Positions 1-32,423 of a DNA stretch of 32,423 nt are shown here, piece by piece. The notes beneath the pieces were generated by a model. That model was not told where the DNA came from and did no database searches. It worked only from the letters and a program-made list of their open reading frames with translations. The translations under genes were made by a program, and so were the position numbers. Source of the DNA: a virus (Duplodnaviria; Heunggongvirae; Uroviricota; Caudoviricetes); the IMG/VR virus record IMGVR_UViG_3300045988_079407. One strand, written 5' to 3'. Position 1 is the stretch's first letter. Every line of letters begins with the position of its first letter.

Positions 1-557
1 TTTTTCTGTAATGCGCCAGAAGCCTGATTTACCGTTTCCTGTAAACCGAGGTTTTGGATAAACAGCGGCTTATTGGGAATATCTGCTCCGTTCCGCTCTT
101 TTGCCAGACGGGCATTGGCATTATCCATCGCAATTTTCACCGCTTTTGCGGTGGCTGCCAGCGTTTCACTGGGGCTGTCAGTGGCACTGGTTAGCTGAAC
201 GAGTCCTTTTTTGTTCAGGCTGGCATCATAGATATCCAGATTTTCACGTGCTGTACGCTGTGCTGATGCCCCGGCAGTTTTAATTTCGCTGAGGTTATTT
301 TTTATCAGAAGCGCGTTCTTGTTCATGATGGCTTTAATGGACAGTGCAAGCTGGTTTAATTTTGTTTTATCCGGTTGAATACCGGCTTCTTCCAGCGTGT
401 TTAATAACTCCGCCTGCACAATATTAAACCAGTCCATGCCGGGCCATGTGATAACATTATTCCCGTCACCTTCTGAAAACCAGCGAACGATAGCACTACG
501 CTGGGCGGATACGGGCGGCATGACGGTTACGCCGCTGTCGTTATCAATATAAAACAT
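1..557 (-). CDS. S: Tail fibre protein, N-terminal part; partial, C-terminus beyond window start
   Basis: Minus-strand ATG at 555..557 shares one base with the stop of the upstream gene (TAATG). Translation begins MFYIDNDSGVTV and stays open to position 1. Position after the baseplate genes matches Mu S. Confidence 0.7.
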   Translation of the reverse strand, partial: MFYIDNDSGVTVMPPVSAQRSAIVRWFSEGDGNNVITWPGMDWFNIVQAELLNTLEEAGIQPDKTKLNQLALSIKAIMNKNALLIKNNLSEIKTAGASAQRTARENLDIYDASLNKKGLVQLTSATDSPSETLAATAKAVKIAMDNANARLAKERNGADIPNKPLFIQNLGLQETVNQASGALQK

Positions 558-1099: not shown

Positions 1100-2172
1100 T
1101 CAATTGTCCCCGGTGTTAACAGTTCCGTATTCTCCGAACGCTGGATCTCTGTCGGGAAACGCACTTCAAAATCATCCAGACCGGTAACACCTGCCACCGC
1201 ACGGATAATACGGGAGGGGGCAAGTGCGCCGCCCGGCGTCACCTCATTAAAAAACATGGTATTAATGGCGTGAGTAATAGCCTGTTTCAGTTCGGCTGTC
1301 TTCGGTGATATATAAATCCGTGGATTTACCGGCTTTGCCTTTGGCGCAAATACCGTGACATTTACACCATCAGGCTGTCCGACAATCAGACCAGTGATCG
1401 GGTCAGTATGACCGGCGATATAATCTGCCACACGTTCCACATCTGCCGGTTGTGGAAAAATATTGCTCCGGTTATCCATAACAAACGTCACCCCGACTGT
1501 GCCACCGCCTTTCCATGTCGGAAAACACCAGGCACGGGTAACGCCGCTGACTTCACGCGCCCAGCGAACATAATCAAACTGATTACCGCCGAACGGAGGA
1601 TACTGGACACGATATTCCAGCCGTGACAGCAGCTCCGCTGCACTCTCAATATCAGCCCCACCGGAAAACCCTTTTACAGTGATGGCATCGGAAACAACAC
1701 AGGCAACCGGGGTGATCAACGTTAAAAGGGTATTCTCACCGGTATTTCCTGCTTCACCGGCAGCCAGTGCGGTAACGGTAATTTCCGTCGTTCCTGCACG
1801 GTCAATCACAATGGCATCAGCCAGGCTGTAAACCACACCATCAGCACGCTGCCAGCGTGTACCGGCAGGAATGGTGGTCGCTGCCGATGTGGTAACAGTC
1901 AGCGGGCCGCTGGCGGCTGTCGCCTGTTTGCGGCGCACGCCCCAGAACCGGCAGTGCTCCAGCAACTCATCTTCATCTGCTGTCGACGGGATAATCTGCC
2001 GTCCAACCCATGAAATATGCTCGTGACAACCGGCAGCAAGGCCTGCCTGAGCATAAGCAATGGCACTCAGCGTTTTTTCACGGGCCTGAGGCCAGCTACC
2101 CGGCAGGCGCTGTTCAATATTCTGTTCTGTACGGGCAATCAGCGATGATAATGTCGGTGGTGAATAAGCCAT
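1090..2172 (-). CDS. Baseplate J-like protein (Mu gp47-like, 360 aa)
   Basis: Size and position in the baseplate block; start abuts the stop of the upstream 145-aa gene. Confidence 0.75.
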   Translation of the reverse strand: MAYSPPTLSSLIARTEQNIEQRLPGSWPQAREKTLSAIAYAQAGLAAGCHEHISWVGRQIIPSTADEDELLEHCRFWGVRRKQATAASGPLTVTTSAATTIPAGTRWQRADGVVYSLADAIVIDRAGTTEITVTALAAGEAGNTGENTLLTLITPVACVVSDAITVKGFSGGADIESAAELLSRLEYRVQYPPFGGNQFDYVRWAREVSGVTRAWCFPTWKGGGTVGVTFVMDNRSNIFPQPADVERVADYIAGHTDPITGLIVGQPDGVNVTVFAPKAKPVNPRIYISPKTAELKQAITHAINTMFFNEVTPGGALAPSRIIRAVAGVTGLDDFEVRFPTEIQRSENTELLTPGTIEWL

Positions 2173-2610
2173 TTAAACCCCGTTAAATGCTGCTTTAAAC
2201 TCATAAGGAATAACGGAACCATCCGGTAATGTCAGTGCAATGTAGAGGTATAACCAGCCCTGATGTAACTGTTCCGCTCTGACGTTAATCGCACTTACCC
2301 GGCCCGCTGTTTTCAGCCATTCCAGCGCCTCTTCGGCATACCCTCTGGCGCGTTCCAGCGTATCCGGTGTGGCTTTTTCACGTGATAACAGCCACAACCG
2401 CGAACCGATGGGGCGGTCGCGGTAACTGTCACCCCACCATCCACGGCGATCATCTGAACCATCCGGCAGCGTGTCAGAATCCAGCGCGCGCCGGTCGGTA
2501 AACAGGGAGATTGTCACATCGGTCGTCAGACTGTCGTCGGTCAGCATATCAATGCCATCCTGTGCAATATCGCCGCGTCCGTTCGTCCAGATAATGGCTA
2601 AATCGGTCAT
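2173..2610 (-). CDS. Mu gp46-like baseplate protein (145 aa)
   Basis: ORF in the track; overlaps the upstream gene by 4 nt; synteny. Confidence 0.65.
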   Translation of the reverse strand: MTDLAIIWTNGRGDIAQDGIDMLTDDSLTTDVTISLFTDRRALDSDTLPDGSDDRRGWWGDSYRDRPIGSRLWLLSREKATPDTLERARGYAEEALEWLKTAGRVSAINVRAEQLHQGWLYLYIALTLPDGSVIPYEFKAAFNGV

Positions 2611-3200
2611 TGCATCGGCCCCGTGGTTCCGCCGCTGTCGCCGCGGTGGATATGCTTATCCGTCGATTTGCCATTGATGATGGCATCCGGGGCAGTAATA
2701 TTGCTGTCGAACTGGCTTTTACCTTTAACGCCCAGACCTTTCTGGATCTCAACGTCGCCGGTAAACGTGGTTCTGGGTGTATCAACGGTCATGCTTTCAT
2801 CAGCGTAAATCTCAACCGTTTTACAGGTAATGATGCAGCGCCCGTCCTTTGTCAGCCTGATACGATGCCCCTCGTGGTGGTAAATGCCTGCATCACCCGG
2901 TTCAAGATTTGTCGGGCGGTAGCGGCGGTCTTCCACCACAACGGCAATCCCCTGATCACGTTGTGCACCCACACAGGCAATCAGCGCCTCTGCGCCCGGC
3001 AGAGGAACGCTGAAATGCCCGTAATTTTGCAGGCGCTCCACTTCATCAGATTCCTCATCATCCAGCAGACCGACCTGCAGGTTCTGAACCTTTCGCCCGT
3101 CGTTAATCACGTTAACAACGGCACGCGCAAGCATCAGACGCACACGACGCATCAGCGGTGTCAGCAGGCGGTTCATGGCGGAATCATTTACTCTTTCCAC
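2607..3200 (-). CDS. Baseplate assembly protein V-like spike (Mu gp45-like, 197 aa)
   Basis: Size and position; Gly-rich C-terminus (GDSGGTTGP) typical of P2 gpV-like spike proteins. Confidence 0.7.
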   Translation of the reverse strand: MERVNDSAMNRLLTPLMRRVRLMLARAVVNVINDGRKVQNLQVGLLDDEESDEVERLQNYGHFSVPLPGAEALIACVGAQRDQGIAVVVEDRRYRPTNLEPGDAGIYHHEGHRIRLTKDGRCIITCKTVEIYADESMTVDTPRTTFTGDVEIQKGLGVKGKSQFDSNITAPDAIINGKSTDKHIHRGDSGGTTGPMQ

Positions 3201-4327
3201 GGCGGCGTTTTCTCCGGGTGTCTGCGATAATAATCTTCAACCAGCGCATCAATACCGCCGTTACTGTCGCCGCCTTTCCTGTTTTTACGGTCGCTTTCAA
3301 CCGGCACCAGAAAGCCTTCGCGTGGTGCAAGGCTGACGCGGGTTTTCAGCCCGTCCTGGTCATTCAGTATCAGGGTGACTTTGCTGACCAGTAATTCCGT
3401 GGTTTTGATGGCATATTTCGAGGCATCAATAGTGACCAGCAGGTTCGGCATCCAGAGTTGCCCGTCCTTGCGTGTCCATCCGTCAATTTCTGCCTCAAAG
3501 GTGATGGATTTTGCCAGTCTGCGGCGTTGCTCACGCAGGGCGCGGGCCTGTGCATCCTTCGCCGTAATTTTGCTGTCGGCAATGATGATCATCGGTCTGT
3601 AACGGGTCACATCACTGTCAGTGGCGGTCCCTTTCCGGGAGACGATACTTTTCGCATCAATATCGTCACCCTCAGCACCGTTTGCGCGGGCATACCCCTT
3701 GACGGTGTATTCGCTGAACCGGTCGCGGAAGTCTTCCTCAAAATCCAGTGTCAGCAGATTTTCTCCGAGAACCAGCTCATCAGTTGCTGTGCTGGCAGCC
3801 CGGCTGAATACCAGCTCTCCTGCGGCATTGCTGGTCATCAGTACACCGCGTGCGCGGGAGGCACGCACCAGCGCCTCATAAACGGTTTCTGAATGGTCCA
3901 GCGTGAAGCCGGGAAAAGCTGCCGAACTTTCCTTATCGGAAAGCTCCCAGCGAACGGTAACGCCATAAGGGGCGCTCAGGTCACGCGCAATCTGCTCCAG
4001 TGTGCGGTTTTTCCACTGTCCGCCACTGTAAACGGCAGCACAGTCAATCAGGTCAGCCGTTTTGTCACGTCCGGCGACAGTGATTTTCATGCTGTCAGCG
4101 GTCATCTGGCGTCGCCGTGAATCGATATAACCGGTGCAGACAATCTGCCCCTCGATTTCGAGCGTGAACTTCTTCCCCGGTGCCAGCCCGGATAAATCCG
4201 TGCCCGGTGGCACGTTCACCCCCAGCTCAAAATATCCGGCTACGGATTCAATCGAGCGGGTGACAGAGACTGACGTCCAGCCGGTAAAAAGCCTGCCATC
4301 CGTTCGCAGCGTGACGGTATTACTCAT
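3188..4327 (-). CDS. P: Tail/baseplate hub protein (Mu P-like, 379 aa)
   Basis: 379 aa, directly downstream of and overlapping the N-like gene; matches Mu P in size and order. Confidence 0.75.
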
Positions 4328-5807
4328 TAATCACCTCAATACTGACGCCACCGGGAACAAACAACGGGTTGCTGATACCGTTCCTGCGGGCCAGCCGTTG
4401 CCAGTTCCGGCTGTTTCCTGTGTAACGGTACAGGGCCACCATTGCAGGCATCGTCTCCGGCAGGCGGTGCATTTCACTGCCCGCCAGTTGCAGCCCGCGT
4501 TTTTCCAGGTCGGCAACAACCAGCAGACGCAGTTGCGTAAGCTGAACGCTGTCTGTCGAAAAGCCCTGCTCAGATGCCGTCAGAATGACGGTATCCAGTG
4601 CAGCCCCCAGCATGGCGGCTGTTTTTCCGATATCGGACACACTTTCAAATACCGGGGGCGTGGCTGTACCACTGTCTGAAAAGGATACCTGTGAAAAGCC
4701 GCCGTCCGGGGTTATGGCAGTTAACTGTAACTGTCCCTGTGTGACGGTAGCAGATGTGCTGCTGGCCCCGCTGGCTGTGCCGGTTGTGGTGGACGGGGCA
4801 TCCAGTACAGGTGCACGGGCGGCATTATCCATCCGGCGACTGAAATCCAGTGCCGCAGTCAGTGCCTGGCTGGCAGCTTCTGCCCGGTATGTCTGCGCCG
4901 CTGCCAGCATGACGTAGTTCAGTGTGGCAATATTTTTTTCTGCAACCGGACTGTTGTACGAGGTTGTGATTGTCCCCTGTCTGCCTGCGGTGGCGGCATG
5001 GCGACGTTCGAATCGCTGCGCCAGACGGTTCCATGTGGAAAATGCTGTCCGGGTATCGCATAACGATGAAACGCCGGACAGCGCCCCCATCAGCGAGGAG
5101 GCCAGCATGGCAGGCTGGTTAATCAGGCTGGTCACAGAGCCTTTCATCGCAGAAAGCGATCCCATCAGACCGCTGACAGTCTGCGTAACCCCCAGATTGT
5201 CCACCGCATCACTGATATCATCGATGACACCGGTTACAGCTTCCATCACGGCGGTTGCCGCCGCAGTGCCATCTTTTACAGTCTGCCAGACAGAGGACAG
5301 CGTATCTCCCAGAGAACCGGTTACAGCAACGGCCTGTGCCGGTACGGCTGCACTGGTGTCTGTCTCTGCGTCCGGGGCTGTATCCTGCAACGACGGATAA
5401 ACGGTAACGGTGAACGCGTAATAATTCAGTTCATCCGCTTTAGTGCGGCATTCCCATGAATCCACCATGACGTCCACAGTGCCGAAATCAGGATGTACCA
5501 GCTCACCGCTACCCGGAGCATCAAGAGCATCCATCAGCGCACCCGCTTCATCTCTGGCTGTTTCTGCGTTGCTGTTCAGAATGCAGGCGCTGAATGTACG
5601 GGAGCGAAGCTTTTTCCCCAGGTCATTGACGCCGCCGGTATCACGTAACGGGTACTCGCGTTTAACCAGGCGACGTCCGCCAGCCTGTTTTTGCTCCTCG
5701 ATGACGAGAAACGGCACGTTACGGAACGTGCCTTTGCCGGTTGTTTTCCTGCCTCCACCGGTTTTATCCCGGACAGCATTAACGGCATTTAAAGCATCTT
5801 CAAACAT
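4320..5807 (-). CDS. N: DNA circularization protein N-like tail protein (495 aa)
   Basis: 495 aa, immediately downstream of the tape measure gene, as in Mu. Confidence 0.75.
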
Positions 5808-22164: not shown

Positions 22165-22395
22165 TCACTGAATTTTCTGTACATGGTATTTTTCTCTGTA
22201 GCGCCGGCAATGGTGGATAATTTCTGGCATATCAACGGACTGCCAGCCTTTCATGTAATAACTTCCGTGGGTGCCATCGTGCCCTGTGTAATCCATTGGC
22301 TTTGGTGGCGGGCCTCCGGCCTCCCGATGTAATACCTCCTGTCGTAAACGTTCACGCCTGCCGAACTGAAAGGACGCATCCCACCCTTTACCCAT
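22165..22395 (-). CDS. Hypothetical protein (76 aa from the ATG at 22395)
   Basis: The ATG overlaps the GH108 stop; weak call because its 3' end overlaps the 39-aa ORF at 22065..22184 by 20 nt. Confidence 0.3.
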   Translation of the reverse strand: MGKGWDASFQFGRRERLRQEVLHREAGGPPPKPMDYTGHDGTHGSYYMKGWQSVDMPEIIHHCRRYREKYHVQKIQ

Positions 22396-22948
22396 GCAGA
22401 ACCTCCCGACAGGCGCTGGCGAGCAGATCCAGACGGTTAAACCAGCCATTCAGATATTTCCCCTGCGAGGCACTGGATTTGATAATCCCTGCGTAATAGC
22501 GGGAACGACGCAGGAAGCACTGCAACAGCAGCCAGTCAGTATCGGCACGCAGAACGGCTGCGCGTGTGTTTTTACCGACGATGCCATCATCATCAACACC
22601 TGCTGCCGCCTGGAGGATCTGAATCGCGCGTTTAACACCGTGCTGAACGGCAGCATCAAAAACGAATAAGGAAACGCCATCAGGCCATTCGTTACACTTT
22701 GCCGCCAGCCAGTAATCACGCCAGTAGATCTGCGCCGCCTGCTCGCGGGTTAAATCCTTAATGCGGGTATCAGGTTTTCCGTCACCGTTAACATCGGTTT
22801 TGCCATCAATAACACCGTCGCGACGGTCAGAAATACCGTATTTCGTTTCGCCGCCACGGTCGGCAGGATCATTAACATAGCCACCTTCAACATCAGGGCG
22901 TATAACGAAATTCAGCGAATGAAGGAATGCAGGGGAAAACTCAGGCAT
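22388..22948 (-). CDS. Glycoside hydrolase family 108-like muramidase with C-terminal peptidoglycan-binding domain (186 aa)
   Basis: N-terminal signature VEGGYVNDPADRGGETKYGIS (EGGY ... D.GG.T.YGI), followed by a region resembling PG_binding_3; AGGAGGG Shine-Dalgarno upstream. Confidence 0.75.
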   Translation of the reverse strand: MPEFSPAFLHSLNFVIRPDVEGGYVNDPADRGGETKYGISDRRDGVIDGKTDVNGDGKPDTRIKDLTREQAAQIYWRDYWLAAKCNEWPDGVSLFVFDAAVQHGVKRAIQILQAAAGVDDDGIVGKNTRAAVLRADTDWLLLQCFLRRSRYYAGIIKSSASQGKYLNGWFNRLDLLASACREVLHG

Positions 22949-23000
22949 GTTGCCCTCCTGTCATGAACGTTTTATCGTCACAACAGAATATTGAGGGCGT

Positions 23001-23968: not shown

Positions 23969-24037
23969 GATCGTACCTCCGGAAAGAGGCGGTGCTGCAA
24001 CACCGCCATATTCAGTAATAACATAAAAGGAAATATT

Positions 24038-24397
24038 ATGGCTGAACAAGAACAACATACAGTGTCGGATGATGAACAAAACCCAGATTTCGAAACAAAC
24101 CAGAAAGACACCCCTGTTAATAACCAGGATAAATTCTTTGGTATAACCGGTTTTATGCTGGTCGGTAATCTGATGATTAAGCTGATTGAAAACGGTGTTA
24201 TCAACATGCACGATGCTTATGACATCATCAGAAATACACAGGCCAGCTATAAGAACCGAAAAACGTTCGAAGAACTGGATTTTGAGGCCGATGAGTATGT
24301 TGATCTGCTGCTCAATAAGCTCTGGGCTTCAAGGCAGGATATTGTTAATGCCGGGAACCTCTCATCAGAGCACACAGATACTGACGCTGTGGAATAA
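24038..24397 (+). CDS. Hypothetical acidic protein (119 aa), opposite strand to the early operon; candidate moron
   Basis: ATG at 24038 with AAAGGA 7-8 nt upstream; strongly acidic with one hydrophobic stretch (FFGITGFMLVGNLMIKLI); about 40% G+C by hand count over the first 60 nt. The only plus-strand ORF here that does not overlap a confident minus-strand gene over most of its length. Confidence 0.5.
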   Translation: MAEQEQHTVSDDEQNPDFETNQKDTPVNNQDKFFGITGFMLVGNLMIKLIENGVINMHDAYDIIRNTQASYKNRKTFEELDFEADEYVDLLLNKLWASRQDIVNAGNLSSEHTDTDAVE

Positions 24398-24635
24398 CCG
24401 CTGAATCATCAACGCCAAGCTCACGACAAACAATATTGTTGTGGGCTTTTTTGTTATGCAACAAAACTTCGTCGCGTATGAGATGAATTTCCCGTGTCAT
24501 AATTTCAAGGGCCTCTCTCGCAGAAAAGCCTTTACTGATTGCAGTCTCAATAACATCGCGCATACGCTCAAGCATCTTAGCTTTCACCAGTTCTTCATCC
24601 AGGTCTTTAGGCGTAAATTTAGTTTCATTATTCAT
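24345..24635 (-). CDS. Hypothetical early protein (96 aa from the ATG at 24635)
   Basis: ATG (MNNETKF) with an AAGGTG Shine-Dalgarno; the upstream stop sits 2 nt away; helical charged protein. Its 3' end overlaps the plus-strand ORF by 53 nt. Confidence 0.5.
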   Translation of the reverse strand: MNNETKFTPKDLDEELVKAKMLERMRDVIETAISKGFSAREALEIMTREIHLIRDEVLLHNKKAHNNIVCRELGVDDSAVIPQRQYLCALMRGSRH

Positions 24636-27228: not shown

Positions 27229-27248
27229 TGTCAGCGTTCCTTTGCGAA

Positions 27249-27518
27249 TTAATGTTTAACCGCATTCACCGGATGTGGTACTAAATCACATTCAGCCTCC
27301 ATACCCACTTTCTTCATAGTGGTCAGCATCTCATCTTTGGCCTTTTTAATAATTTCAGGAGCCATAGTCAGGACGATATTTGCCAGTAAATCATGAGGTC
27401 CGGTATTTTCCGTTGGCGAGATATCTGCAAGACATGCTTTTGCATCCAGAACTTCTCTGCGCCCATTGCAACCTTCACTACTTTCCAGCCATGTAAACTC
27501 AAAGATAACTTTTGCCAT
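27249..27518 (-). CDS. Hypothetical early protein (89 aa)
   Basis: ORF in the track in the semi-essential region. Confidence 0.45.
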   Translation of the reverse strand: MAKVIFEFTWLESSEGCNGRREVLDAKACLADISPTENTGPHDLLANIVLTMAPEIIKKAKDEMLTTMKKVGMEAECDLVPHPVNAVKH

Positions 27519-27529
27519 TTTGCGTCTCC

Positions 27530-27760
27530 TTATTGATTCTGAATAACTGCGCTGGCTTTTACCTTCGCGCCTTTTACCTGCTTAAAGAAAACCGCGCTGC
27601 ACCACGGACAACATGCAAAGGAGTCCCATACTTCATTTTCTGGTGAGCATTGCGTCATAATTTGCTCTTTGCATTTGGGGCAATTAAATGCAGTCAAAGC
27701 CACATTGTTATTCTGTACCCGTTTAACCCATTCAATATATTTTTCAGCTTTAGTACACAT
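27530..27760 (-). CDS. Small zinc-finger protein (about 76 aa from the ATG at 27760)
   Basis: CPKC ... CCPWC; the internal ATG follows the kil-like stop by 2 nt. Confidence 0.45.
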   Translation of the reverse strand: MCTKAEKYIEWVKRVQNNNVALTAFNCPKCKEQIMTQCSPENEVWDSFACCPWCSAVFFKQVKGAKVKASAVIQNQ

Positions 27761-27762
27761 CG

Positions 27763-27990
27763 TTATCTCCAGATAATCTGGCAACCATTAAGACGGGCCG
27801 TCCATACAGAACGGGCCACCCCGGACTTATGCTCCATAATTCTGACCGCGTTTTTTACCAGTTCCACCGGTGGGTAAGTGATTTCAAGAATCGGACGCGC
27901 CACGCCGAGATATGATTCATTTACATGACTCCCGCGCGCCTGTAACCAGTTCTGCGCATCCGTTGCCATTTTTATATTTCGGGCCATCAT
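27763..27990 (-). CDS. Kil-like small protein (75 aa), first gene after B
   Basis: 75 aa in the position where Mu encodes kil; assigned by position only. Confidence 0.45.
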
Positions 27991-28005
27991 AATTTCTTCT
28001 CCTTC

Positions 28006-28944
28006 TTAATTACGCAGCAGCGTTGAAATATCAACGTCCAGGTCTAATTCACGGAAAGCCTGACGCAGATAATCTTCGTTAACACGCTCACCTTTACCGT
28101 GAGCCGTCATGGCGGCAAGGCGAAGTGAATGATTCAGAATGCGAAGCGCACCTGGTTTCTGCGCAATCTGCTGTAATAACTCCAGTTCTTTTTCGCCGTT
28201 AATCTGCCAGGCATCCGCAATAGCTTTTACATCGGCTTTTTTGGTTTTATTAATTGCAGTGCGCTTTGCAATACGGGAAAACAGACGGGCAAATTCAACC
28301 GTTCTGTTACCCCCCGTCATATTTGAATAAACCCGGTGATTTCCCATCAGCACAAGGCCAATACGGGTTGATTCCTGTAACAGGCGGAGTTCTTCCAGAA
28401 CTTCGGCACCAAGATGATCAGCTTCGTCGATGATAACCAGCCCTTGTGTACCTTCAAGGCGACGTCGCAGGGCGCGGGAGAGCGGCCCTTTACGGCGTGG
28501 TGCGTCATTCATTCCCAGCTCAAACGCCAGTTCAGTAAGACATTCCAGAACGCTGGCACAGGATGGCGTAATGGTGATCATCCAGACATTGTTATTGGTG
28601 CGGCGATATTCACGGGCAGCTTCGGTTTTGCCCACACCAGGATTGCCACATACAACAGCAATACTTTCAGTCAGGCTGGCAAAACGCATACTTGTCCAGA
28701 TTTGTTTTACCGTCTGCGTTTCCACAAAGCGGGGCGGTTCAGGTAGTTCTGCAACTGCATGATATTTTTCCAGCCAGCGTTGCAGAATTTGTGAAACACG
28801 CTCGTTATCCCCGTTGTACTTATCATTGATAAAACTACTGATAGTTCCGGTAGAAAGTCCGCTCTCAAGAGCAATTTGTTTAAAGGTGGTTTCTTCATTT
28901 TCTACAAGCGTGCGCAGTCCTGCGCGAATATCGGAAATATTCAT
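28006..28944 (-). CDS. B: Transposition ATPase MuB (AAA+ target-DNA activator, 312 aa)
   Basis: 312 aa with a Walker A motif (GNPGVGKTE) and Walker B motif (LVIIDEADHL) after an N-terminal HTH-like region; immediately downstream of the transposase. Confidence 0.95.
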   Translation of the reverse strand: MNISDIRAGLRTLVENEETTFKQIALESGLSTGTISSFINDKYNGDNERVSQILQRWLEKYHAVAELPEPPRFVETQTVKQIWTSMRFASLTESIAVVCGNPGVGKTEAAREYRRTNNNVWMITITPSCASVLECLTELAFELGMNDAPRRKGPLSRALRRRLEGTQGLVIIDEADHLGAEVLEELRLLQESTRIGLVLMGNHRVYSNMTGGNRTVEFARLFSRIAKRTAINKTKKADVKAIADAWQINGEKELELLQQIAQKPGALRILNHSLRLAAMTAHGKGERVNEDYLRQAFRELDLDVDISTLLRN

Positions 28945-28982
28945 CTGAATAACCTCGTAATTAAATTTTGTTTAAACGTTAA

Positions 28983-30980
28983 TTAAATGGCTTTTTTACG
29001 TCTGTTCTGTTCCAGAATATCCAGCGAATGATTCAGATATTCATCACGCTCAGTTTCGTATTCATCATCACGCTCCTGATTCTTCACTCGTTCCGTATTA
29101 CCGGAAGGCCGGAAAATGCCGACAATTCGTGATTCTGGTGCTTCAGGTTCGGCTATCTGCGGCAGCAGCTCTGCCACTTCCAGTGCATCCATTTGTTTCT
29201 GTGCCTTAATTGCTGCTTTCGTCGCAGATTTCAGTTGTTTCTGGCGGCGGCGATATTCACGGCCTGCCGCAGCATCATTAAACGCAACAGGTGCCAGACA
29301 TTCCGCTTCACAGATAAACCGACCGTCCAGGGTGTAGCAATAAACCGTGCTGTGTAACTGCTGTGGATCAAATCTGACCACAACTTTTTTCACTCCGGCA
29401 TTCATTAACGCCATGTTGTAATAAACGTTTTTCGCACCTTTAAGGGAGCCACCAACTTTAAGCGCGAACTCGCCTTTACGTGAAACGTTCACTGCCTCGG
29501 CAGGCAGTAACAGCATCCGTTTTTGCTCTTCGGTAGGCTTACGCACAATCGTTCTGGCGTATTCACGCTCAAAAACGTCATCAAACGAAAGTTTGCCTCC
29601 GCACATTTCTGTTTCACGGCCTGTTCTGGCATTGAACATCGCCACACCTTCGGCAAGGGTTTTCAGAAACAGCTCTGCATCAACAGCGCGGTCGCCATAG
29701 TTATCAGGTTTTGCCTGCGGATTAGGCCCCGTATATGCGCCAGCCAGTGCCGGATGCTTATCAACGTATTCCTCAAGCCCACCAACACCGAAAGCACGTT
29801 CAACAGGTTTTGCCTGGCCCCAGCCTTTACCGGCAACAACGCTTGTCCAGTGCATTTTCGCCCCCATCAGTAAAAACAGTCCTTTTGGATCGTCCTCTTT
29901 TACCTTAAAGCGGTAGCGATTGGGCGCGCCTCCCGTCAGCCATTTATTCGCAGCACCACGGGTGTTATCAATGGTGATGTGAAAATCCTCCGGGATACCG
30001 TAGCGAGTCACAACATCCATGAACGAGAGGCGAATTGAATCAATGTTCTCGCTCACATCGCAGCGCCAGCCCAGAATTTTTCGGGTTTTCACATCCTGCC
30101 AGAACCATGTTTTCGGACGGATCACATCACCGTTAAACCAGCGTACAAAGACGTTATGCAGATAACCGTCGCCGTTGATCCACTGCATGGCGTCCAGGTG
30201 TTCCACAGTTCGCTGCTGTGCCGGTATCAGATGCATCAGTGCATGTTCACCTTCACGACAGGCAACAACCATTGCCTCGTCCAGTTGCTGAATCCGGCGA
30301 AAGGCCGTGGCACGGGAGGGAATACTCCAGCCATGCTCGCGGGCTGCCAGTTCCAGACGCTCATAACATTTGCGGAAGGCGGGTTTTTCCGGTCGCAGAT
30401 AATCTGCAATCAGAAACTGCCAGGCATCCTCGTCAAATTCACTTTTGTGAACGTTGCGACGGGATGCACCACGTCCATCAACAAGCGCAGCCGCCCAGTC
30501 AGGCTTCGCAAACTTCTGTACCTGGTAATACTTGTCCCGCAAAGTGGATGCGCTGACCTGGTAATGCCCTGCAACGGTCGCAAAAGCCGTTTTTGTTGAA
30601 ATCCCCTGGTTCAGCATTTCGTCTGCAGCCTGAACCGCAGGCAACCATTTTTCAGCAAGTCTGCGCTGGGAATCGCTGGCGTTATCCCATTTGCTCCACA
30701 GCACCTCACGATCATAATCATGGGCTTCCAGCGTGGGGCGGGCGATTTCAAAATACCCCTGGCTTGTTTCTATTTGCTCAGATTTTAATAACAACTCAGC
30801 ACGTGCTGCCGCTGGCAGAACTGATATATGAAATTCCAAAGCCTTTGAACCCGTACGCTTGCGACGTAGTTCTGGATGATTGGCTGCAAGCTTTTCAAGA
30901 TTGCGGCGAATACTCACCTCATGTTTAGGAAAGCATGACATTCCTACGCATTCTTGCGCTGTTACCCAATGGGTTAACAT
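28983..30980 (-). CDS. A: DDE transposase MuA (665 aa from the ATG at 30980)
   Basis: ATG at 30980 ([11 protein letters not shown]) with a GGAG Shine-Dalgarno 8 nt upstream; the track's longer form starts at a TTG. The core closely matches Mu A as I recall it, but the N-terminal DNA-binding domain differs. Confidence 0.95.
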
Positions 30981-31201
30981 GATGTTTTCTCCATATACCG
31001 AGAAGGCCAAATCTGGGCTGGTTCCATATCCAAATATCTAGCAATGATTGCTTCGTATCGTGGTATATGGCAGCGAAATACGTTACGCATAGTGTCAGGC
31101 TTTAAGCCTGCCTCTCTGGATAATTGAGATAGTGTCTTCCCCTTCATACGAACAGCAGCCTTTATCTGCTCTGCGTGCCAGTCTTGGTTTTTTGCTGACA
31201 T
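30974..31201 (-). CDS. ner: Ner-like transcriptional regulator (75 aa)
   Basis: 75 aa, Ner/Nlp family (conserved IWPSRY); AAGGA Shine-Dalgarno; first gene of the early operon, divergent from the repressor. Confidence 0.85.
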
Positions 31202-31370
31202 TCTGCGATCCTTACTTTCTTAACGTTTTCGGTAACTGATACCGGCTACCGCTATCGGGAAAAACGATAGCGCAGAAAAATGCGCATTTCAAGAGCTATG
31301 CGCATTTTTATTTTAACCAATGCAAATCAAAGCATTCTGTAAAATTCTTTATATAACAGAGAGATTGAGC
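31202..31370. promoter_or_regulatory. Divergent early/repressor promoter-operator region (Pe/Pc with operators; expected site of the transposition enhancer)
   Basis: Inverted repeat cgctatcg-ggaaaa-cgatagcg (31250..31271) and two ATGCGCAT palindromes (31278..31289 as aaatgcgcattt; 31298..31305), 18 bp centre to centre; located between ner and c. Confidence 0.7.
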
Positions 31371-31979
31371 ATGACAGGTGAAAAAGAAAGCAAAAATGCA
31401 GAGCGCATTTTTATGCCATCTGAAATAATGCGTTTCAAGGAACGCCTTGAAGAGGCAATGAATGGAGAATCAAGCCGGGCGTTTGCAGCTAAGTGCGGAC
31501 TCTCTGATGGGGTTATCAGAAACTACCTGTCTGGCAAGACATACCCGTCTTTAGATCGATTAGCACAAATAGCCTACGCAACAGGGCGTCCAATAGAGTG
31601 GTTTATCCAAAGTCAGAGCATGCCAATGGTTGAGCATAAAAATACTCAAGAGAATAAAAATCCTCAACCTGACCGCAGCACATTGAAAACTAAACTGATC
31701 GCAATTGTCGAATTGTTAGAGGACAAGGAACTGCATTCTGCGATTGAGTTGTTCAGAAAGAAAGGATTTGAAGCTCTTATGCCTGAGATTTTTTCTTCCG
31801 ATGATTCCATCCAGGCTAATTTGCAAGGTATTTCGCAACAAACCTTACAAACAGCCAAAATGCTTGAATCATTACCAACAGATACTCGTAAAGAGATTTT
31901 GTCAAAGTATGGTATTTATGAACAGGAAGGTCTTGTAGCTCCTTCACAAGAACCACAAGATGTAAAAAAAGCCGTATAA
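31371..31979 (+). CDS. c: Mu-type repressor c (about 202 aa from the ATG at 31371)
   Basis: Transcribed away from the early operon. The C-terminus (KEILSKYGIYEQEGLVAPSQEPQDVKKAV) resembles the Mu repressor tail as I recall it; the N-terminal DNA-binding domain differs. Start could also be 31320 or the later MPSEIMRF. Confidence 0.8.
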   Translation: MTGEKESKNAERIFMPSEIMRFKERLEEAMNGESSRAFAAKCGLSDGVIRNYLSGKTYPSLDRLAQIAYATGRPIEWFIQSQSMPMVEHKNTQENKNPQPDRSTLKTKLIAIVELLEDKELHSAIELFRKKGFEALMPEIFSSDDSIQANLQGISQQTLQTAKMLESLPTDTRKEILSKYGIYEQEGLVAPSQEPQDVKKAV

Positions 31980-32145
31980 CAACCATGAACCAGCTAAAAC
32001 ATACTTCACCTCACATAATCACACATGTAACATACCTAAACGGCATGAGCTGATTTGTGATATGAGTCATTTGGTTACAGCCTGGTTGTTATCGGTTTTG
32101 AACGTTTTTTGAAGCTGTTATTGAAATGATTTGCAGTGTTTTTGT

Positions 32146-32423
<278 letters not shown>

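What the first reader, a model, noticed from the sequence alone, without database searches (positions are those of the whole stretch)
30974..31979. Immunity region looks D108-like rather than Mu-like
The core of the transposase and the B protein match Mu as I remember them, but the repressor N-terminal domain, the Ner sequence and the first 70 or so residues of the transposase (the operator/enhancer-binding domain) differ from what I recall for Mu. That modular pattern, a divergent left-end regulatory cassette on a Mu-like backbone, is the known Mu versus D108 difference and implies heteroimmunity to Mu. This rests on recollection, not on an alignment.
Basis: inference. Interest (0 to 1): 0.45.

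Follow-up and report, generated by a model that had tools for sequence, protein, structure and literature searches.

The report
Non-Mu, non-D108 immunity cassette on Mu
A Mu prophage carries a 1.1-kb left-end control cassette that matches neither Mu nor D108, and its repressor has a lambda/434-style (XRE) DNA-binding domain unrelated to the transposase's N-terminal domain, so it is a further, undescribed Mu immunity type.

Summary
On a backbone about 97-98% identical to Mu (B 99.7%, transposase core 99.5%), a sharply bounded 1,086-bp segment (window 30774-31859) has no DNA similarity to Mu. The segment covers transposase residues 1-69, ner, the control region and repressor codons 1-163.

The interpretation "D108-like" is wrong:
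- The segment has no DNA similarity to D108 either.
- Ner is 42% identical to both Mu Ner and D108 Ner.
- The transposase N-terminus is 34-37% identical to Mu, D108 and PhiR68_1.
- The adjacent attL end is 95% Mu and only 80% D108.

The repressor N-terminus is an XRE/Cro-C1 HTH (Pfam HTH_3, confident five-helix model). It is joined to a Mu-c-like central domain and a Mu-type tail ending VKKAV. In Mu, D108 and PhiR68_1 the repressor and transposase N-termini are homologous (E 1e-18 to 4e-27). Here they show no similarity.

Footprinting across seven related prophages predicts three operators with the half-site GCGCATTTTT, one of them in the early-promoter spacer. The half-site changes together with the recognition helix between lineages.

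Heteroimmunity to Mu and to D108 is predicted but untested. The cassette is rare (2 of 5,426 complete E. coli genomes). I rate it a new variant of a known kind, of moderate interest.

The parts
30774..31859 (.). Replaced early-control (immunity) cassette with no DNA similarity to Mu or D108
   Evidence: This is the gap between the two Mu-homologous blastn blocks. No phage record covers it. The full cassette occurs in only 2 of 5,426 complete E. coli genomes.
31371..31979 (+). Repressor gene c (202 aa, start MTGEKE; a longer ORF starts at the ATG at 31320)
   Evidence: ORF. The 202-aa form is 99% identical to cluster P0001 (342 members), and the SE11 copy is annotated by RefSeq as a 202-aa protein (609-bp CDS incl. 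stop). It matches Mu c at 42% over 146 aa, in the central and C-terminal part only.
31416..31610 (+). XRE/Cro-C1-type helix-turn-helix DNA-binding domain of the repressor (residues about 16-80)
   Evidence: Pfam HTH_3, E 3e-7, 30.8 bits against a cut-off of 23. The AlphaFold model has pLDDT 85-90 with five helices and no strands. Foldseek top hits are C.AhdI, P22 c2, 434, lambda cI and SinR at rmsd 1.3-1.7 A. There is no hit to the Mu repressor DNA-binding domain.
31674..31793 (+). Central helical domain of the repressor (residues about 102-141), homologous to the central domain of Mu c; presumed oligomerisation domain
   Evidence: Pfam HTH_Tnp_Mu_1 profile positions 76-133 match residues 103-170 below threshold. 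blastp to Mu c. Conserved in all XRE-type relatives. The function is inferred from knowledge of Mu c.
31860..31979 (+). Mu-type C-terminal tail of the repressor (residues 164-202, ending VKKAV) plus stop codon
   Evidence: The DNA is 95% identical to Mu 339-458. The last 45 residues are 80% identical to PhiR68_1, 69% to Mu and 47% to D108. The sister-lineage repressors lack this tail.
31270..31285 (.). Predicted operator O-1, GCGCAGAAAAATGCGC, filling the 17-nt spacer of the early promoter
   Evidence: The arms co-vary between lineages: GCGAATAAAAATTCGC in L016 and GCGCACATAAGTACGC in L017.
31300..31315 (.). Predicted operator O-2 (GCGCATTTTTATTTTA), 30 bp from O-1 in inverted orientation
   Evidence: The 30-bp spacing is conserved in six of seven loci.
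31403..31418 (.). Predicted operator O-3 (GCGCATTTTTATGCCA), inside repressor codons 11-16 and 103 bp from O-2
   Evidence: The 103-bp spacing is conserved in five of seven loci. The Arg codon inside the site changes synonymously (CGC to CGA or AGA), in step with the other two sites.
31264..31292 (-). Early (Pe-like) promoter for ner-A-B: -35 TTGAAA, 17-nt spacer, -10 TATCGT
   Evidence: It is the only promoter-like site in 31100-31500. Both hexamers are conserved or improved in relatives, for example TTTACA and TATATT in L013. This is a consensus match only.
31230..31272 (.). Two overlapping inverted repeats, candidate Ner operator(s): CGGTAACTG-ATAC-CGGCTACCG (31230-31251, 7 of 9) and CGCTATCG-N7-CGATAGCG (31250-31272, perfect)
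   Evidence: The first aligns with perfect 9-N4-9 repeats in L015 and L017 and with a co-varying 8-N6-8 repeat in L016. The second has shuffle P = 0.007 but is specific to the window. Assignment to Ner is inferred from the position, just downstream of the Pe start.
31325..31337 (+). IHF-like sequence AATCAAAGCATTC between O-2 and O-3
   Evidence: Read from the sequence. It matches WATCAANNNNTTR except at the last base. This is speculative.
30974..31201 (-). ner homologue (75 aa)
   Evidence: Pfam HTH_35, E 2e-25. PDB hits to Mu Ner 1NEQ (E 4.5e-13) and EnrR 7F9H (E 7e-16). It is 42% identical to Mu Ner and D108 Ner, and 92% to L007 Ner.
30774..30980 (-). Cassette-specific N-terminal (I-alpha, enhancer-binding) domain of the transposase, residues 1-69
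   Evidence: Pfam HTH_Tnp_Mu_1, E 4e-31. PDB hit to MuA I-alpha 1TNS, E 4e-7. It is 34-37% identical to Mu, D108 and PhiR68_1, and 80% to L007.
28983..30773 (-). Transposase A, remainder (backbone)
   Evidence: 99.5% identical to MuA and 99.8% to D108 A over about 582 aa.
28006..28944 (-). Transposition protein B (backbone)
   Evidence: 99.7% identical to Mu B.
31980..32317 (-). Mu-type left end (attL); the phage terminus is at 32317, with host DNA beyond it
   Evidence: 95% identical to Mu 1-338 and 80% to D108. The flank 32318-32423 is core E. coli DNA.

Best explanation
The window holds the left 32 kb of a Mu prophage in reverse orientation. Its early-control module has been exchanged for one that belongs to neither Mu nor D108.

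The exchanged 1.09-kb block carries four specificity elements together.

1. A chimeric repressor. It has an XRE/Cro-C1 helix-turn-helix domain in place of the Mu-type winged helix, followed by a Mu-c-like central domain and the Mu-type C-terminal tail (VKKAV).

2. Three repressor operators built on the half-site GCGCATTTTT. O-1 is a 16-bp near-palindrome that fills the spacer of the rightward early promoter. O-2 lies 30 bp to its left (phage orientation) and O-3 a further 103 bp, inside the 5' end of the repressor gene.

3. A divergent Ner, with a candidate inverted-repeat operator just downstream of the early transcription start.

4. A divergent enhancer-binding (I-alpha) domain on an otherwise Mu-identical transposase.

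Most likely mechanism: repressor dimers or oligomers occupy O-1 to O-3, block RNA polymerase at the early promoter, and so silence ner-A-B and maintain lysogeny. Ner would down-regulate early and repressor transcription during lytic growth. The I-alpha domain would recognise a cognate enhancer inside the same block.

Because the DNA-binding domain and the operators are unrelated to those of Mu, D108 and PhiR68_1, a lysogen should be immune only to phages with this cassette and sensitive to the others.

Shown: the mosaic boundaries, the domain identities, the lack of repressor/transposase homology, and the site arrangement with its co-variation.
Inferred: which protein binds which site, repression, heteroimmunity, and ClpXP control through the tail.
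For: Mosaic and non-identity with Mu and D108:
-.
- No deposited phage has a Ner above 50% identity or a transposase N-terminus above 47%.

Repressor fold:
- Pfam HTH_3 above the curated cut-off.
- No PDB sequence hit to the Mu repressor domain.
- Confident five-helix model that superposes on C.AhdI, P22 c2, 434 and lambda cI.

Loss of the repressor/transposase relationship:
- Mu E 1.3e-18, D108 7e-21 and PhiR68_1 4e-27 serve as positive controls.
- No alignment for the window or L017; only chance-level alignments (E 0.18 and 3.0) for L007 and L016.

Operators:
- The exact 10-mer GCGCATTTTT occurs three times in the whole 32.4-kb window, all within 31276-31412. About 0.06 copies would be expected by chance (my arithmetic for a random 10-mer on both strands of 32.4 kb, not a tool output).
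- The mean in shuffles of the 250-bp region is 0.17, and none of 2,000 shuffles reaches three.
- The 30-bp and 103-bp spacing is kept in five of seven related loci.
- Half-site position 4 is C, A or T at all three sites of a genome, in step with the recognition helix LSDGVIRNY, LSDTVIRNY or LSEAVIRNY.
- O-1 sits exactly in the spacer of the only predicted promoter.
- The half-site is absent from the Mu, D108 and PhiR68_1 control regions.

The element is alive:
- All four genes are intact.
- Copies 98.9-99.3% identical lie at different chromosomal sites in SE11 and N1286, and this window's host junction is found in no complete E. coli genome.
- Relatives sit at different host flanks.
Against: - No binding, transcription or immunity data exist. 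Assigning the GCGCATTTTT sites to the repressor rests on co-variation among only three specificity groups, which are also phylogenetic groups, so linkage cannot be separated from recognition.
- The transposase recognition helix groups the same way, so those sites could equally be enhancer elements.
- O-2 and O-3 each have only one good half-site.
- The repressor's own promoter was not found by the scan.
- The candidate Ner repeat is imperfect in the window itself (7 of 9).
- Foldseek E-values are weak (2.6e-3 or higher) because the domain is small.
- The right end of the prophage lies outside the window, so completeness is not established.
Confidence: 0.8

Rival explanations
1. The cassette is the D108 immunity region. 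The prophage would then be homoimmune with D108 and SfMu.
For: The same kind of mosaic and the same junction in gene A as between Mu and D108. Parts of the early region elsewhere in the window (27244-27498, 24008-24609) are D108-like rather than Mu-like.
Against: There is no DNA match to D108 in 30774-31859. Ner is 42%, the transposase N-terminus 37%, and only the repressor C-terminus matches, at 36%. The repressor DNA-binding fold is different. The attL end is closer to Mu. SfMu shows what a D108-type cassette looks like: 89.7% repressor and 98.6% Ner.
Confidence: 0.02
2. The three GCGCATTTTT sites are not repressor operators. They would instead be the transpositional enhancer bound by the transposase I-alpha domain, or Ner sites, and the XRE repressor would bind elsewhere, for example at the inverted repeats at 31230-31272.
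For: In Mu the enhancer coincides with operators O1-O2 (established knowledge; PMC3820752 describes the operator/enhancer). The transposase recognition-helix region ([24 protein letters not shown]) groups the loci exactly as the half-site variants do. Inverted repeats with co-varying arms also exist near ner.
Against: The palindromic 16-mer with arms of 5-6 bp and an A/T centre is typical of XRE dimers. O-1 lies in the promoter spacer, where a repressor is expected. A three-site layout reaching into the 5' end of c mirrors the Mu repressor operators, as far as I recall them. The repeats near ner lie where the Mu record annotates the Ner-binding region, between the two promoters.
Confidence: 0.15
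3. The cassette is a decaying or non-functional remnant in a defective prophage, so it confers no working immunity.
For: In S. flexneri SFBU1023 and E. coli ECMA0423 the same cassette has ner interrupted by an IS3-family element. The right end of this prophage is outside the window.
Against: In the window c, ner, A and B are all full-length. Near-identical copies sit at different chromosomal sites, and this window's host junction is found in no complete E. coli genome. The repressor cluster has 342 member sequences. The operator pattern is conserved across lineages about 72% diverged.
Confidence: 0.07

Closest known systems
Bacteriophage Mu early regulatory region (c, O1-O3, Pe/Pcm, ner, MuA I-alpha)
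   Same: Gene order and orientation are the same, and the c-ner intergenic length is about 170 bp in both. Ner has the same fold and the transposase has an I-alpha winged helix. The repressor's central and C-terminal part is homologous (42% over 146 aa), with a VKKAV tail. Both have a three-site operator layout that reaches into the start of c. The surrounding backbone is 95-99% identical.
   Different: There is no DNA similarity across 1,086 bp. The repressor DNA-binding domain is an XRE HTH rather than the Mu winged helix, and it is not homologous to the transposase N-terminus. The operator sequences are different. Ner is 42% and I-alpha 34% identical.
Bacteriophage D108 / SfMu immunity region
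   Same: The same modular replacement principle applies, with the same right-hand junction near transposase residue 67-69.
   Different: The cassette is no closer to D108 than to Mu for any element. D108 keeps the repressor/transposase N-terminal homology (E 7e-21) and this cassette does not. The left junction also differs: here the last 40 codons of c and the attL end are Mu-like.
Escherichia phage PhiR68_1 (PV340575) type repressor (171 aa; P0016/P0018)
   Same: It is another non-Mu, non-D108 cassette on the same backbone. Its repressor tail is 80% identical to the window's.
   Different: Its repressor N-terminus is a Mu-type winged helix, 67% identical to its own transposase N-terminus (E 4e-27). 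There is no similarity to the window's N-terminus.
XRE-type repressors of more distant Mu-like prophages (L007/L010 Citrobacter-type, L013, L015-L017) and of Pseudomonas D3112/B3-like transposable phages
   Same: The enterobacterial relatives share the XRE HTH plus central domain (46-73% identity), the Ner (84-92%), the I-alpha type (80% in L007), the operator half-site and its spacing. Repressors of Pseudomonas transposable phages match residues 36-113 at about 40%. HTH-type repressors in Mu-like phages are reported in PMC8541194.
   Different: Those phages have backbones only 56-83% identical in A and B, and their repressors lack the Mu-type tail. The window combines this cassette type with a true Mu backbone. 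Many distant Mu-like repressors carry an S24 peptidase domain (PMC8541194), which is absent here.

Membership tests
D108 immunity type | Repressor closely related to D108 c (SfMu, a member, is 89.7% identical) | tested here: not met
   Only residues 121-219 of the long ORF align, at 36%. D108 is absent from the tblastn hits of the repressor.
D108 immunity type | Ner and transposase N-terminus of D108 specificity (SfMu: Ner 98.6%) | tested here: not met
   Ner is 42.2% and transposase residues 1-75 are 36.8% identical.
D108 immunity type | DNA homology to D108 positions about 360-1475 | tested here: not met
   No blastn alignment. The left end is 80% D108 against 95% Mu.
Mu immunity type | Repressor, Ner and transposase N-terminus nearly identical to Mu | tested here: not met
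   Ner is 42.4% and transposase residues 1-75 are 33.8% identical. The repressor N-terminus has no similarity to Mu's. There is no DNA match to Mu 459-1528.
Mu-family early control module (as in Mu, D108, PhiR68_1) | Leftward c and rightward ner-A-B, separated by an operator region of about 170 bp next to attL | tested here: met
   ORFs and coordinates, and the annotation of the SE11 copy.
Mu-family early control module (as in Mu, D108, PhiR68_1) | Repressor N-terminal DNA-binding domain homologous to the N-terminal domain of its own transposase (Harshey 1985 and Mizuuchi 1986, cited in PMC3820752) | tested here: not met
   blastp with word size 2 gives Mu 1.3e-18, D108 7e-21 and PhiR68_1 4e-27. 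The window gives no alignment.
Mu-family early control module (as in Mu, D108, PhiR68_1) | Repressor central and C-terminal region homologous to Mu c | tested here: met
   42% over 146 aa, E 2e-29. The tail DNA is 95% Mu.
Mu-family early control module (as in Mu, D108, PhiR68_1) | Transposase I-alpha domain binds an enhancer that overlaps the repressor operators | not testable with these tools
   The I-alpha fold is present. Its DNA sites are unknown.
XRE / Cro-C1 family HTH repressors | HTH_3-type five-helix DNA-binding domain | tested here: met
   Pfam HTH_3 at 30.8 bits against a cut-off of 23. The model has pLDDT 85-90. Foldseek matches to C.AhdI, P22 c2, 434 and lambda cI have target TM-scores of 0.78-0.84 for C.AhdI, P22 c2 and 434 and 0.58-0.59 for lambda cI.
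XRE / Cro-C1 family HTH repressors | Palindromic operators bound by a dimer | tested here: inconclusive
   O-1 is a 16-bp near-palindrome with co-varying arms. No binding data exist.
Lambda cI / LexA-type SOS-cleavable repressors | C-terminal S24 peptidase domain | tested here: not met
   No Peptidase_S24 hit at E 0.1 or better. The C-terminal part is Mu-c-like instead.
Ner family | HTH_35 domain protein encoded first in the early operon | tested here: met
   Pfam HTH_35, E 1.9e-25. Mu Ner 1NEQ, E 4.5e-13.

The most novel reading that the evidence does not exclude
In this cassette type the textbook coupling of Mu immunity and transposition has been rebuilt with two unrelated folds. In Mu, the repressor and the transposase use homologous domains to compete for the same operator/enhancer sites. 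Here there are two possibilities. Either an XRE repressor and a winged-helix I-alpha domain have converged on the same or overlapping GCGCATTTTT-type sites, or the enhancer has been physically separated from the operators. Either outcome would show that the repressor/transposase homology is dispensable for Mu-type lysogeny control. It would also give a natural system, on an otherwise isogenic Mu backbone, for separating enhancer function from repression.
Probability: 0.4. Interest if true: 0.55.

Novelty: new variant of a known kind. Interest (0 to 1): 0.42.

Why it matters
Mu and D108 have served for 40 years as the pair that defines Mu immunity. In both, the repressor and the transposase share an N-terminal DNA-binding domain, which underpins the operator-equals-enhancer model.

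This prophage, together with PhiR68_1-type elements, shows that the Mu backbone circulates in E. coli and Shigella with at least four interchangeable control cassettes. In one of them the repressor has a completely different DNA-binding fold.

That has three consequences:
- It predicts a new heteroimmunity group.
- It offers a near-isogenic natural experiment on whether repressor/transposase homology is needed.
- It warns that annotation pipelines label these repressors only as generic helix-turn-helix proteins.

It is not a new kind of system. XRE-type repressors are already known in distant Mu-like phages.

Tried and rejected
1. My first operator guess was the 12-bp palindrome AAATGCGCATTT. 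With up to 2 mismatches it was no more frequent in the window than in shuffles (3 found, 3.14 expected). Footprinting replaced it with the 16-mer and the 10-bp half-site, which are highly enriched.

2. I first took the L007/L010 lineage to be the donor of the cassette. DNA identity is about 72-80% over both cassette and backbone, so it is a sister lineage that natively carries this cassette type. The direct donor is unknown.

3. The promoter scan found no promoter for the repressor gene on the + strand. By eye, TATATAAC at 31350-31357 could be a -10, but I do not claim it.

4. I tried to read Mizuuchi, Weisberg and Mizuuchi 1986 (PMC339817), but it is not held. I reproduced its key observation directly.

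5. A sequence search of the PDB with the repressor gave only weak XRE hits (E 0.3 or higher). The fold assignment therefore rests on Pfam and the predicted structure.

6. I could not assign the inverted repeats near ner to Ner rather than another protein from co-variation, because there are too few independent lineages.

7. Literature searches found no description of this cassette. The SE11 genome paper only lists the prophage as Mu-like. The library lacks most subscription-journal papers, so absence there is weak evidence of novelty.
Full report
WHAT IS THERE

The right-hand end of the window is the left end of a Mu-type prophage in reverse orientation. The phage terminus is at 32317, and the 106 bases beyond it are core E. 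coli DNA, found in 5,405 of 5,426 complete genomes. No complete genome has this particular junction.

Reading leftwards on the + strand, the elements are:
- the repressor gene c, 31371-31979 (+), 202 aa;
- a 169-bp control region;
- ner, 30974-31201 (-);
- transposase A, 28983-30980 (-);
- B, 28006-28944 (-).

RefSeq annotates the nearly identical SE11 copy in the same way, as two helix-turn-helix proteins, a transposase and an AAA ATPase.

CHECKING THE OBSERVATION

Local blastn of the window against the complete Mu and D108 genomes gives sharp boundaries:
- Window 27499-30773 is 97.2% identical to Mu 1529-4803.
- Window 31860-32317 is 95.0% identical to Mu 1-458.
- The 1,086 bp in between (30774-31859) align with neither genome.

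At protein level, B is 99.7% identical to Mu B, and the transposase beyond residue 80 is 99.5% (Mu) and 99.8% (D108). The first 75 transposase residues are only 34% and 37% identical. Ner is 42% to both. The repressor aligns with Mu c only in its central and C-terminal part.

The true block is 30774-31859 rather than 30974-31979.

IS IT D108-LIKE? NO

- The cassette has no DNA similarity to D108.
- D108 does not appear among the tblastn hits of the repressor.
- Ner and the transposase N-terminus are as far from D108 as from Mu. Mu and D108 are in fact closer to each other (Ner 53%, transposase N-terminus 45%) than either is to this cassette.
- SfMu shows what membership of the D108 type looks like: repressor 89.7% and Ner 98.6% identical to D108 (also PMC4406740).
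- The adjacent attL end and the last 40 codons of c are 95% Mu and only 80% D108.
- No record in the phage collection carries this cassette. The best Ner match is 50% and the best transposase N-terminus match is 46%.

WHAT THE CASSETTE ENCODES

Ner is a clear Ner-family protein (Pfam HTH_35, E 2e-25; Mu Ner structure 1NEQ, E 4.5e-13).

The transposase N-terminus is still a Mu-type I-alpha winged helix (HTH_Tnp_Mu_1, E 4e-31; MuA 1TNS, E 4e-7).

The repressor is different:
- Its N-terminus matches Pfam HTH_3 above the curated threshold.
- It finds no Mu-repressor structure in the PDB.
- In an AlphaFold model built on 13 homologues it forms a confident five-helix domain (residues 16-80, pLDDT 85-90) with no beta wing.
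- That domain superposes on C.AhdI, P22 c2, 434 repressor, lambda cI and SinR at 1.3-1.7 A.
- Behind it comes a helical central domain homologous to that of Mu c, then a tail whose DNA is 95% Mu and which ends in VKKAV.

The protein is therefore a chimera: an XRE-type DNA-binding head on a Mu-c body.

THE FEATURE THAT SETS IT APART

Mu and D108 are known for the homology between the N-terminal domains of repressor and transposase (Harshey et al. 1985 and Mizuuchi et al. 1986, as cited in PMC3820752). I reproduced this as a positive control:
- Mu, E 1.3e-18;
- D108, E 7e-21;
- PhiR68_1, a third winged-helix cassette found in a 2025 phage record, E 4e-27.

With the same settings, the window gives no alignment at all, L017 likewise, and L007 and L016 give only chance-level alignments (E 0.18 and 3.0).

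The four cassettes sit on transposase cores that are 99.3-99.8% identical. The Mu backbone therefore circulates with at least four control modules, and this one is the most divergent.

RELATIVES

The 202-aa repressor is 99% identical to a cluster of 342 sequences from E. coli and Shigella. The full cassette is nevertheless present in only 2 of 5,426 complete E. coli genomes (SE11 and N1286). Those two copies lie at different insertion sites, and 88 genomes have a Mu-like left end of some type. Among GTDB species representatives it appears in one S. flexneri genome and one E. coli genome.

A graded series of XRE-type repressors (46-73% identical) exists in other Enterobacterales, for example Citrobacter portucalensis. 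In every case the gene sits in the same c-ner-A-B-kil left end, with different host flanks.

The L007/L010 lineage shares the cassette type: Ner 92%, transposase N-terminus 80%, repressor residues 1-145 72%. Its backbone is equally diverged (transposase 74%, B 83%, DNA about 72% throughout), and its repressor lacks the Mu-type tail. It is therefore a sister lineage in which this cassette type is native, not the direct donor.

The window's element is best read as a recombinant. It combines an XRE-type cassette with a Mu backbone, with junctions inside c (between codons 141 and 164) and inside A (codon 69).

PREDICTED CONTROL SITES

Aligning the control regions of seven loci shows a conserved block that contains the only sigma-70-like promoter found by the scan. 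It points towards ner: -35 TTGAAA at 31292-31287 and -10 TATCGT at 31269-31264.

The 17-nt spacer of that promoter is filled by a 16-bp near-palindrome, GCGCAGAAAAATGCGC (31270-31285). Two further copies of its half-site GCGCATTTTT lie 30 bp away (31300) and 103 bp beyond that (31403, inside codons 11-16 of c).

The evidence that these sites are meaningful:
- These are the only three exact copies of the 10-mer in the whole 32.4-kb window.
- None of 2,000 dinucleotide shuffles of the region reaches three.
- The 30-bp and 103-bp spacing recurs in five of seven loci.
- Position 4 of the half-site is C in four loci, A in two and T in one. The change is concerted at all three sites of a genome, and it includes a synonymous Arg codon change at the site inside c.
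- The change parallels the residue in the predicted recognition helix (LSDG-, LSDT- and LSEA-VIRNY).

I read these sites as the repressor operators O-1 to O-3, with O-1 occluding the early promoter. An IHF-like sequence (31325-31337) lies between O-2 and O-3, which recalls the Mu arrangement, but this is speculative.

Closer to ner there are inverted repeats with co-varying arms. They are perfect 9-N4-9 in L015 and L017, 8-N6-8 in L016, and imperfect in the window at 31230-31251. The window also has its own perfect 8-N7-8 repeat at 31250-31272. These lie just downstream of the predicted early transcription start, which is where the Mu record places the Ner-binding region, so I assign them tentatively to Ner.

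The predicted half-sites are absent from the Mu, D108 and PhiR68_1 control regions. This is the basis for predicting heteroimmunity to all three.

WHAT REMAINS OPEN

No experiment supports any of the binding assignments. The three specificity groups are also phylogenetic groups, and the transposase recognition helix groups the loci the same way. The co-variation therefore cannot distinguish recognition by the repressor from recognition by the transposase.

This is also the interesting question. The I-alpha domain has been kept and has diverged together with the cassette, so it presumably still needs a cognate enhancer inside the block. Whether that enhancer overlaps the operators of an unrelated repressor fold is unknown.

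The role of the Mu-type tail in ClpXP-dependent induction is inferred from what I recall of Mu c and MuA C-terminal signals, and was not tested.

COMPARISON AND NOVELTY

The module works like the Mu and D108 early control region and has the same architecture. It fails the one feature that unites Mu, D108 and PhiR68_1, namely repressor/transposase N-terminal homology.

HTH-type repressors in more distant Mu-like phages are documented, often with an S24 peptidase domain that is absent here (PMC8541194). Pseudomonas transposable-phage repressors match the HTH region at about 40%.

I found no description of this cassette on a true Mu backbone in the searchable literature. The SE11 genome paper lists the prophage only as 'Mu-like' (PMC2608844). 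That library is incomplete, so this is weak evidence.

VERDICT

The 'D108-like' label is rejected, and the heteroimmunity prediction is kept and extended to D108. This is a new variant of a known kind, of moderate interest to Mu specialists.

Noticed in passing
window 22388-22948 (-), within 22397-22982: A 186-aa ORF with Glyco_hydro_108 (E 9e-25) and PG_binding_3 (E 7e-14) domains lies in a segment of about 586 bp that is absent from both Mu and D108. It sits between the mor and gene 18 homologues, next to where Mu has its middle promoter. It is an extra muramidase-like gene in addition to the normal endolysin.
   Followed up: partly
window 27244-27498 and 24008-24609: These two early-region patches have no Mu DNA match but are covered by the continuous 96% alignment to D108. 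Window 22181-22396 is only 77% identical to both. The backbone is therefore itself a Mu/D108 mosaic outside the immunity cassette.
   Followed up: no
L018 1476-2741 and L019 (equivalent to window about 31111-31113, inside ner): In S. flexneri SFBU1023 and E. coli ECMA0423 the same cassette (98% identical) has ner interrupted by an IS3-family insertion of about 1.26 kb (OrfA 100 aa, OrfB 272 aa with rve domains). This probably locks or deregulates those prophages.
   Followed up: partly
L029 (PhiR68_1, PV340575.1) 346-1500; proteins P0016, P0018: This is another non-Mu, non-D108 immunity cassette on the Mu backbone. Its 171-aa winged-helix repressor is 67% identical at its N-terminus to its own transposase, and its Ner is 65% identical to D108 Ner. 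It is common among the 88 E. coli genomes with Mu-like left ends, where it is annotated as 'DNA-binding protein'.
   Followed up: partly
window 30974-30980: The ner stop codon (TAA, 30974-30976) and the transposase start (ATG, 30978-30980) overlap in the sequence ATGTTAA, so the ner and A reading frames overlap by 7 bases. In Mu and D108 the two genes are separated by 1 and 7 bases. RefSeq annotates the same overlap in SE11.
   Followed up: no
window 1-61: The left edge of the window matches both copies of the G-segment inverted repeat of Mu and D108. The window therefore ends inside the invertible tail-fibre region and lacks the right end of the prophage.
   Followed up: no
L015 3142-3603: One XRE-type relative has an extra 153-aa ORF of unknown function on the opposite strand, inserted between ner and the transposase gene.
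   Followed up: no
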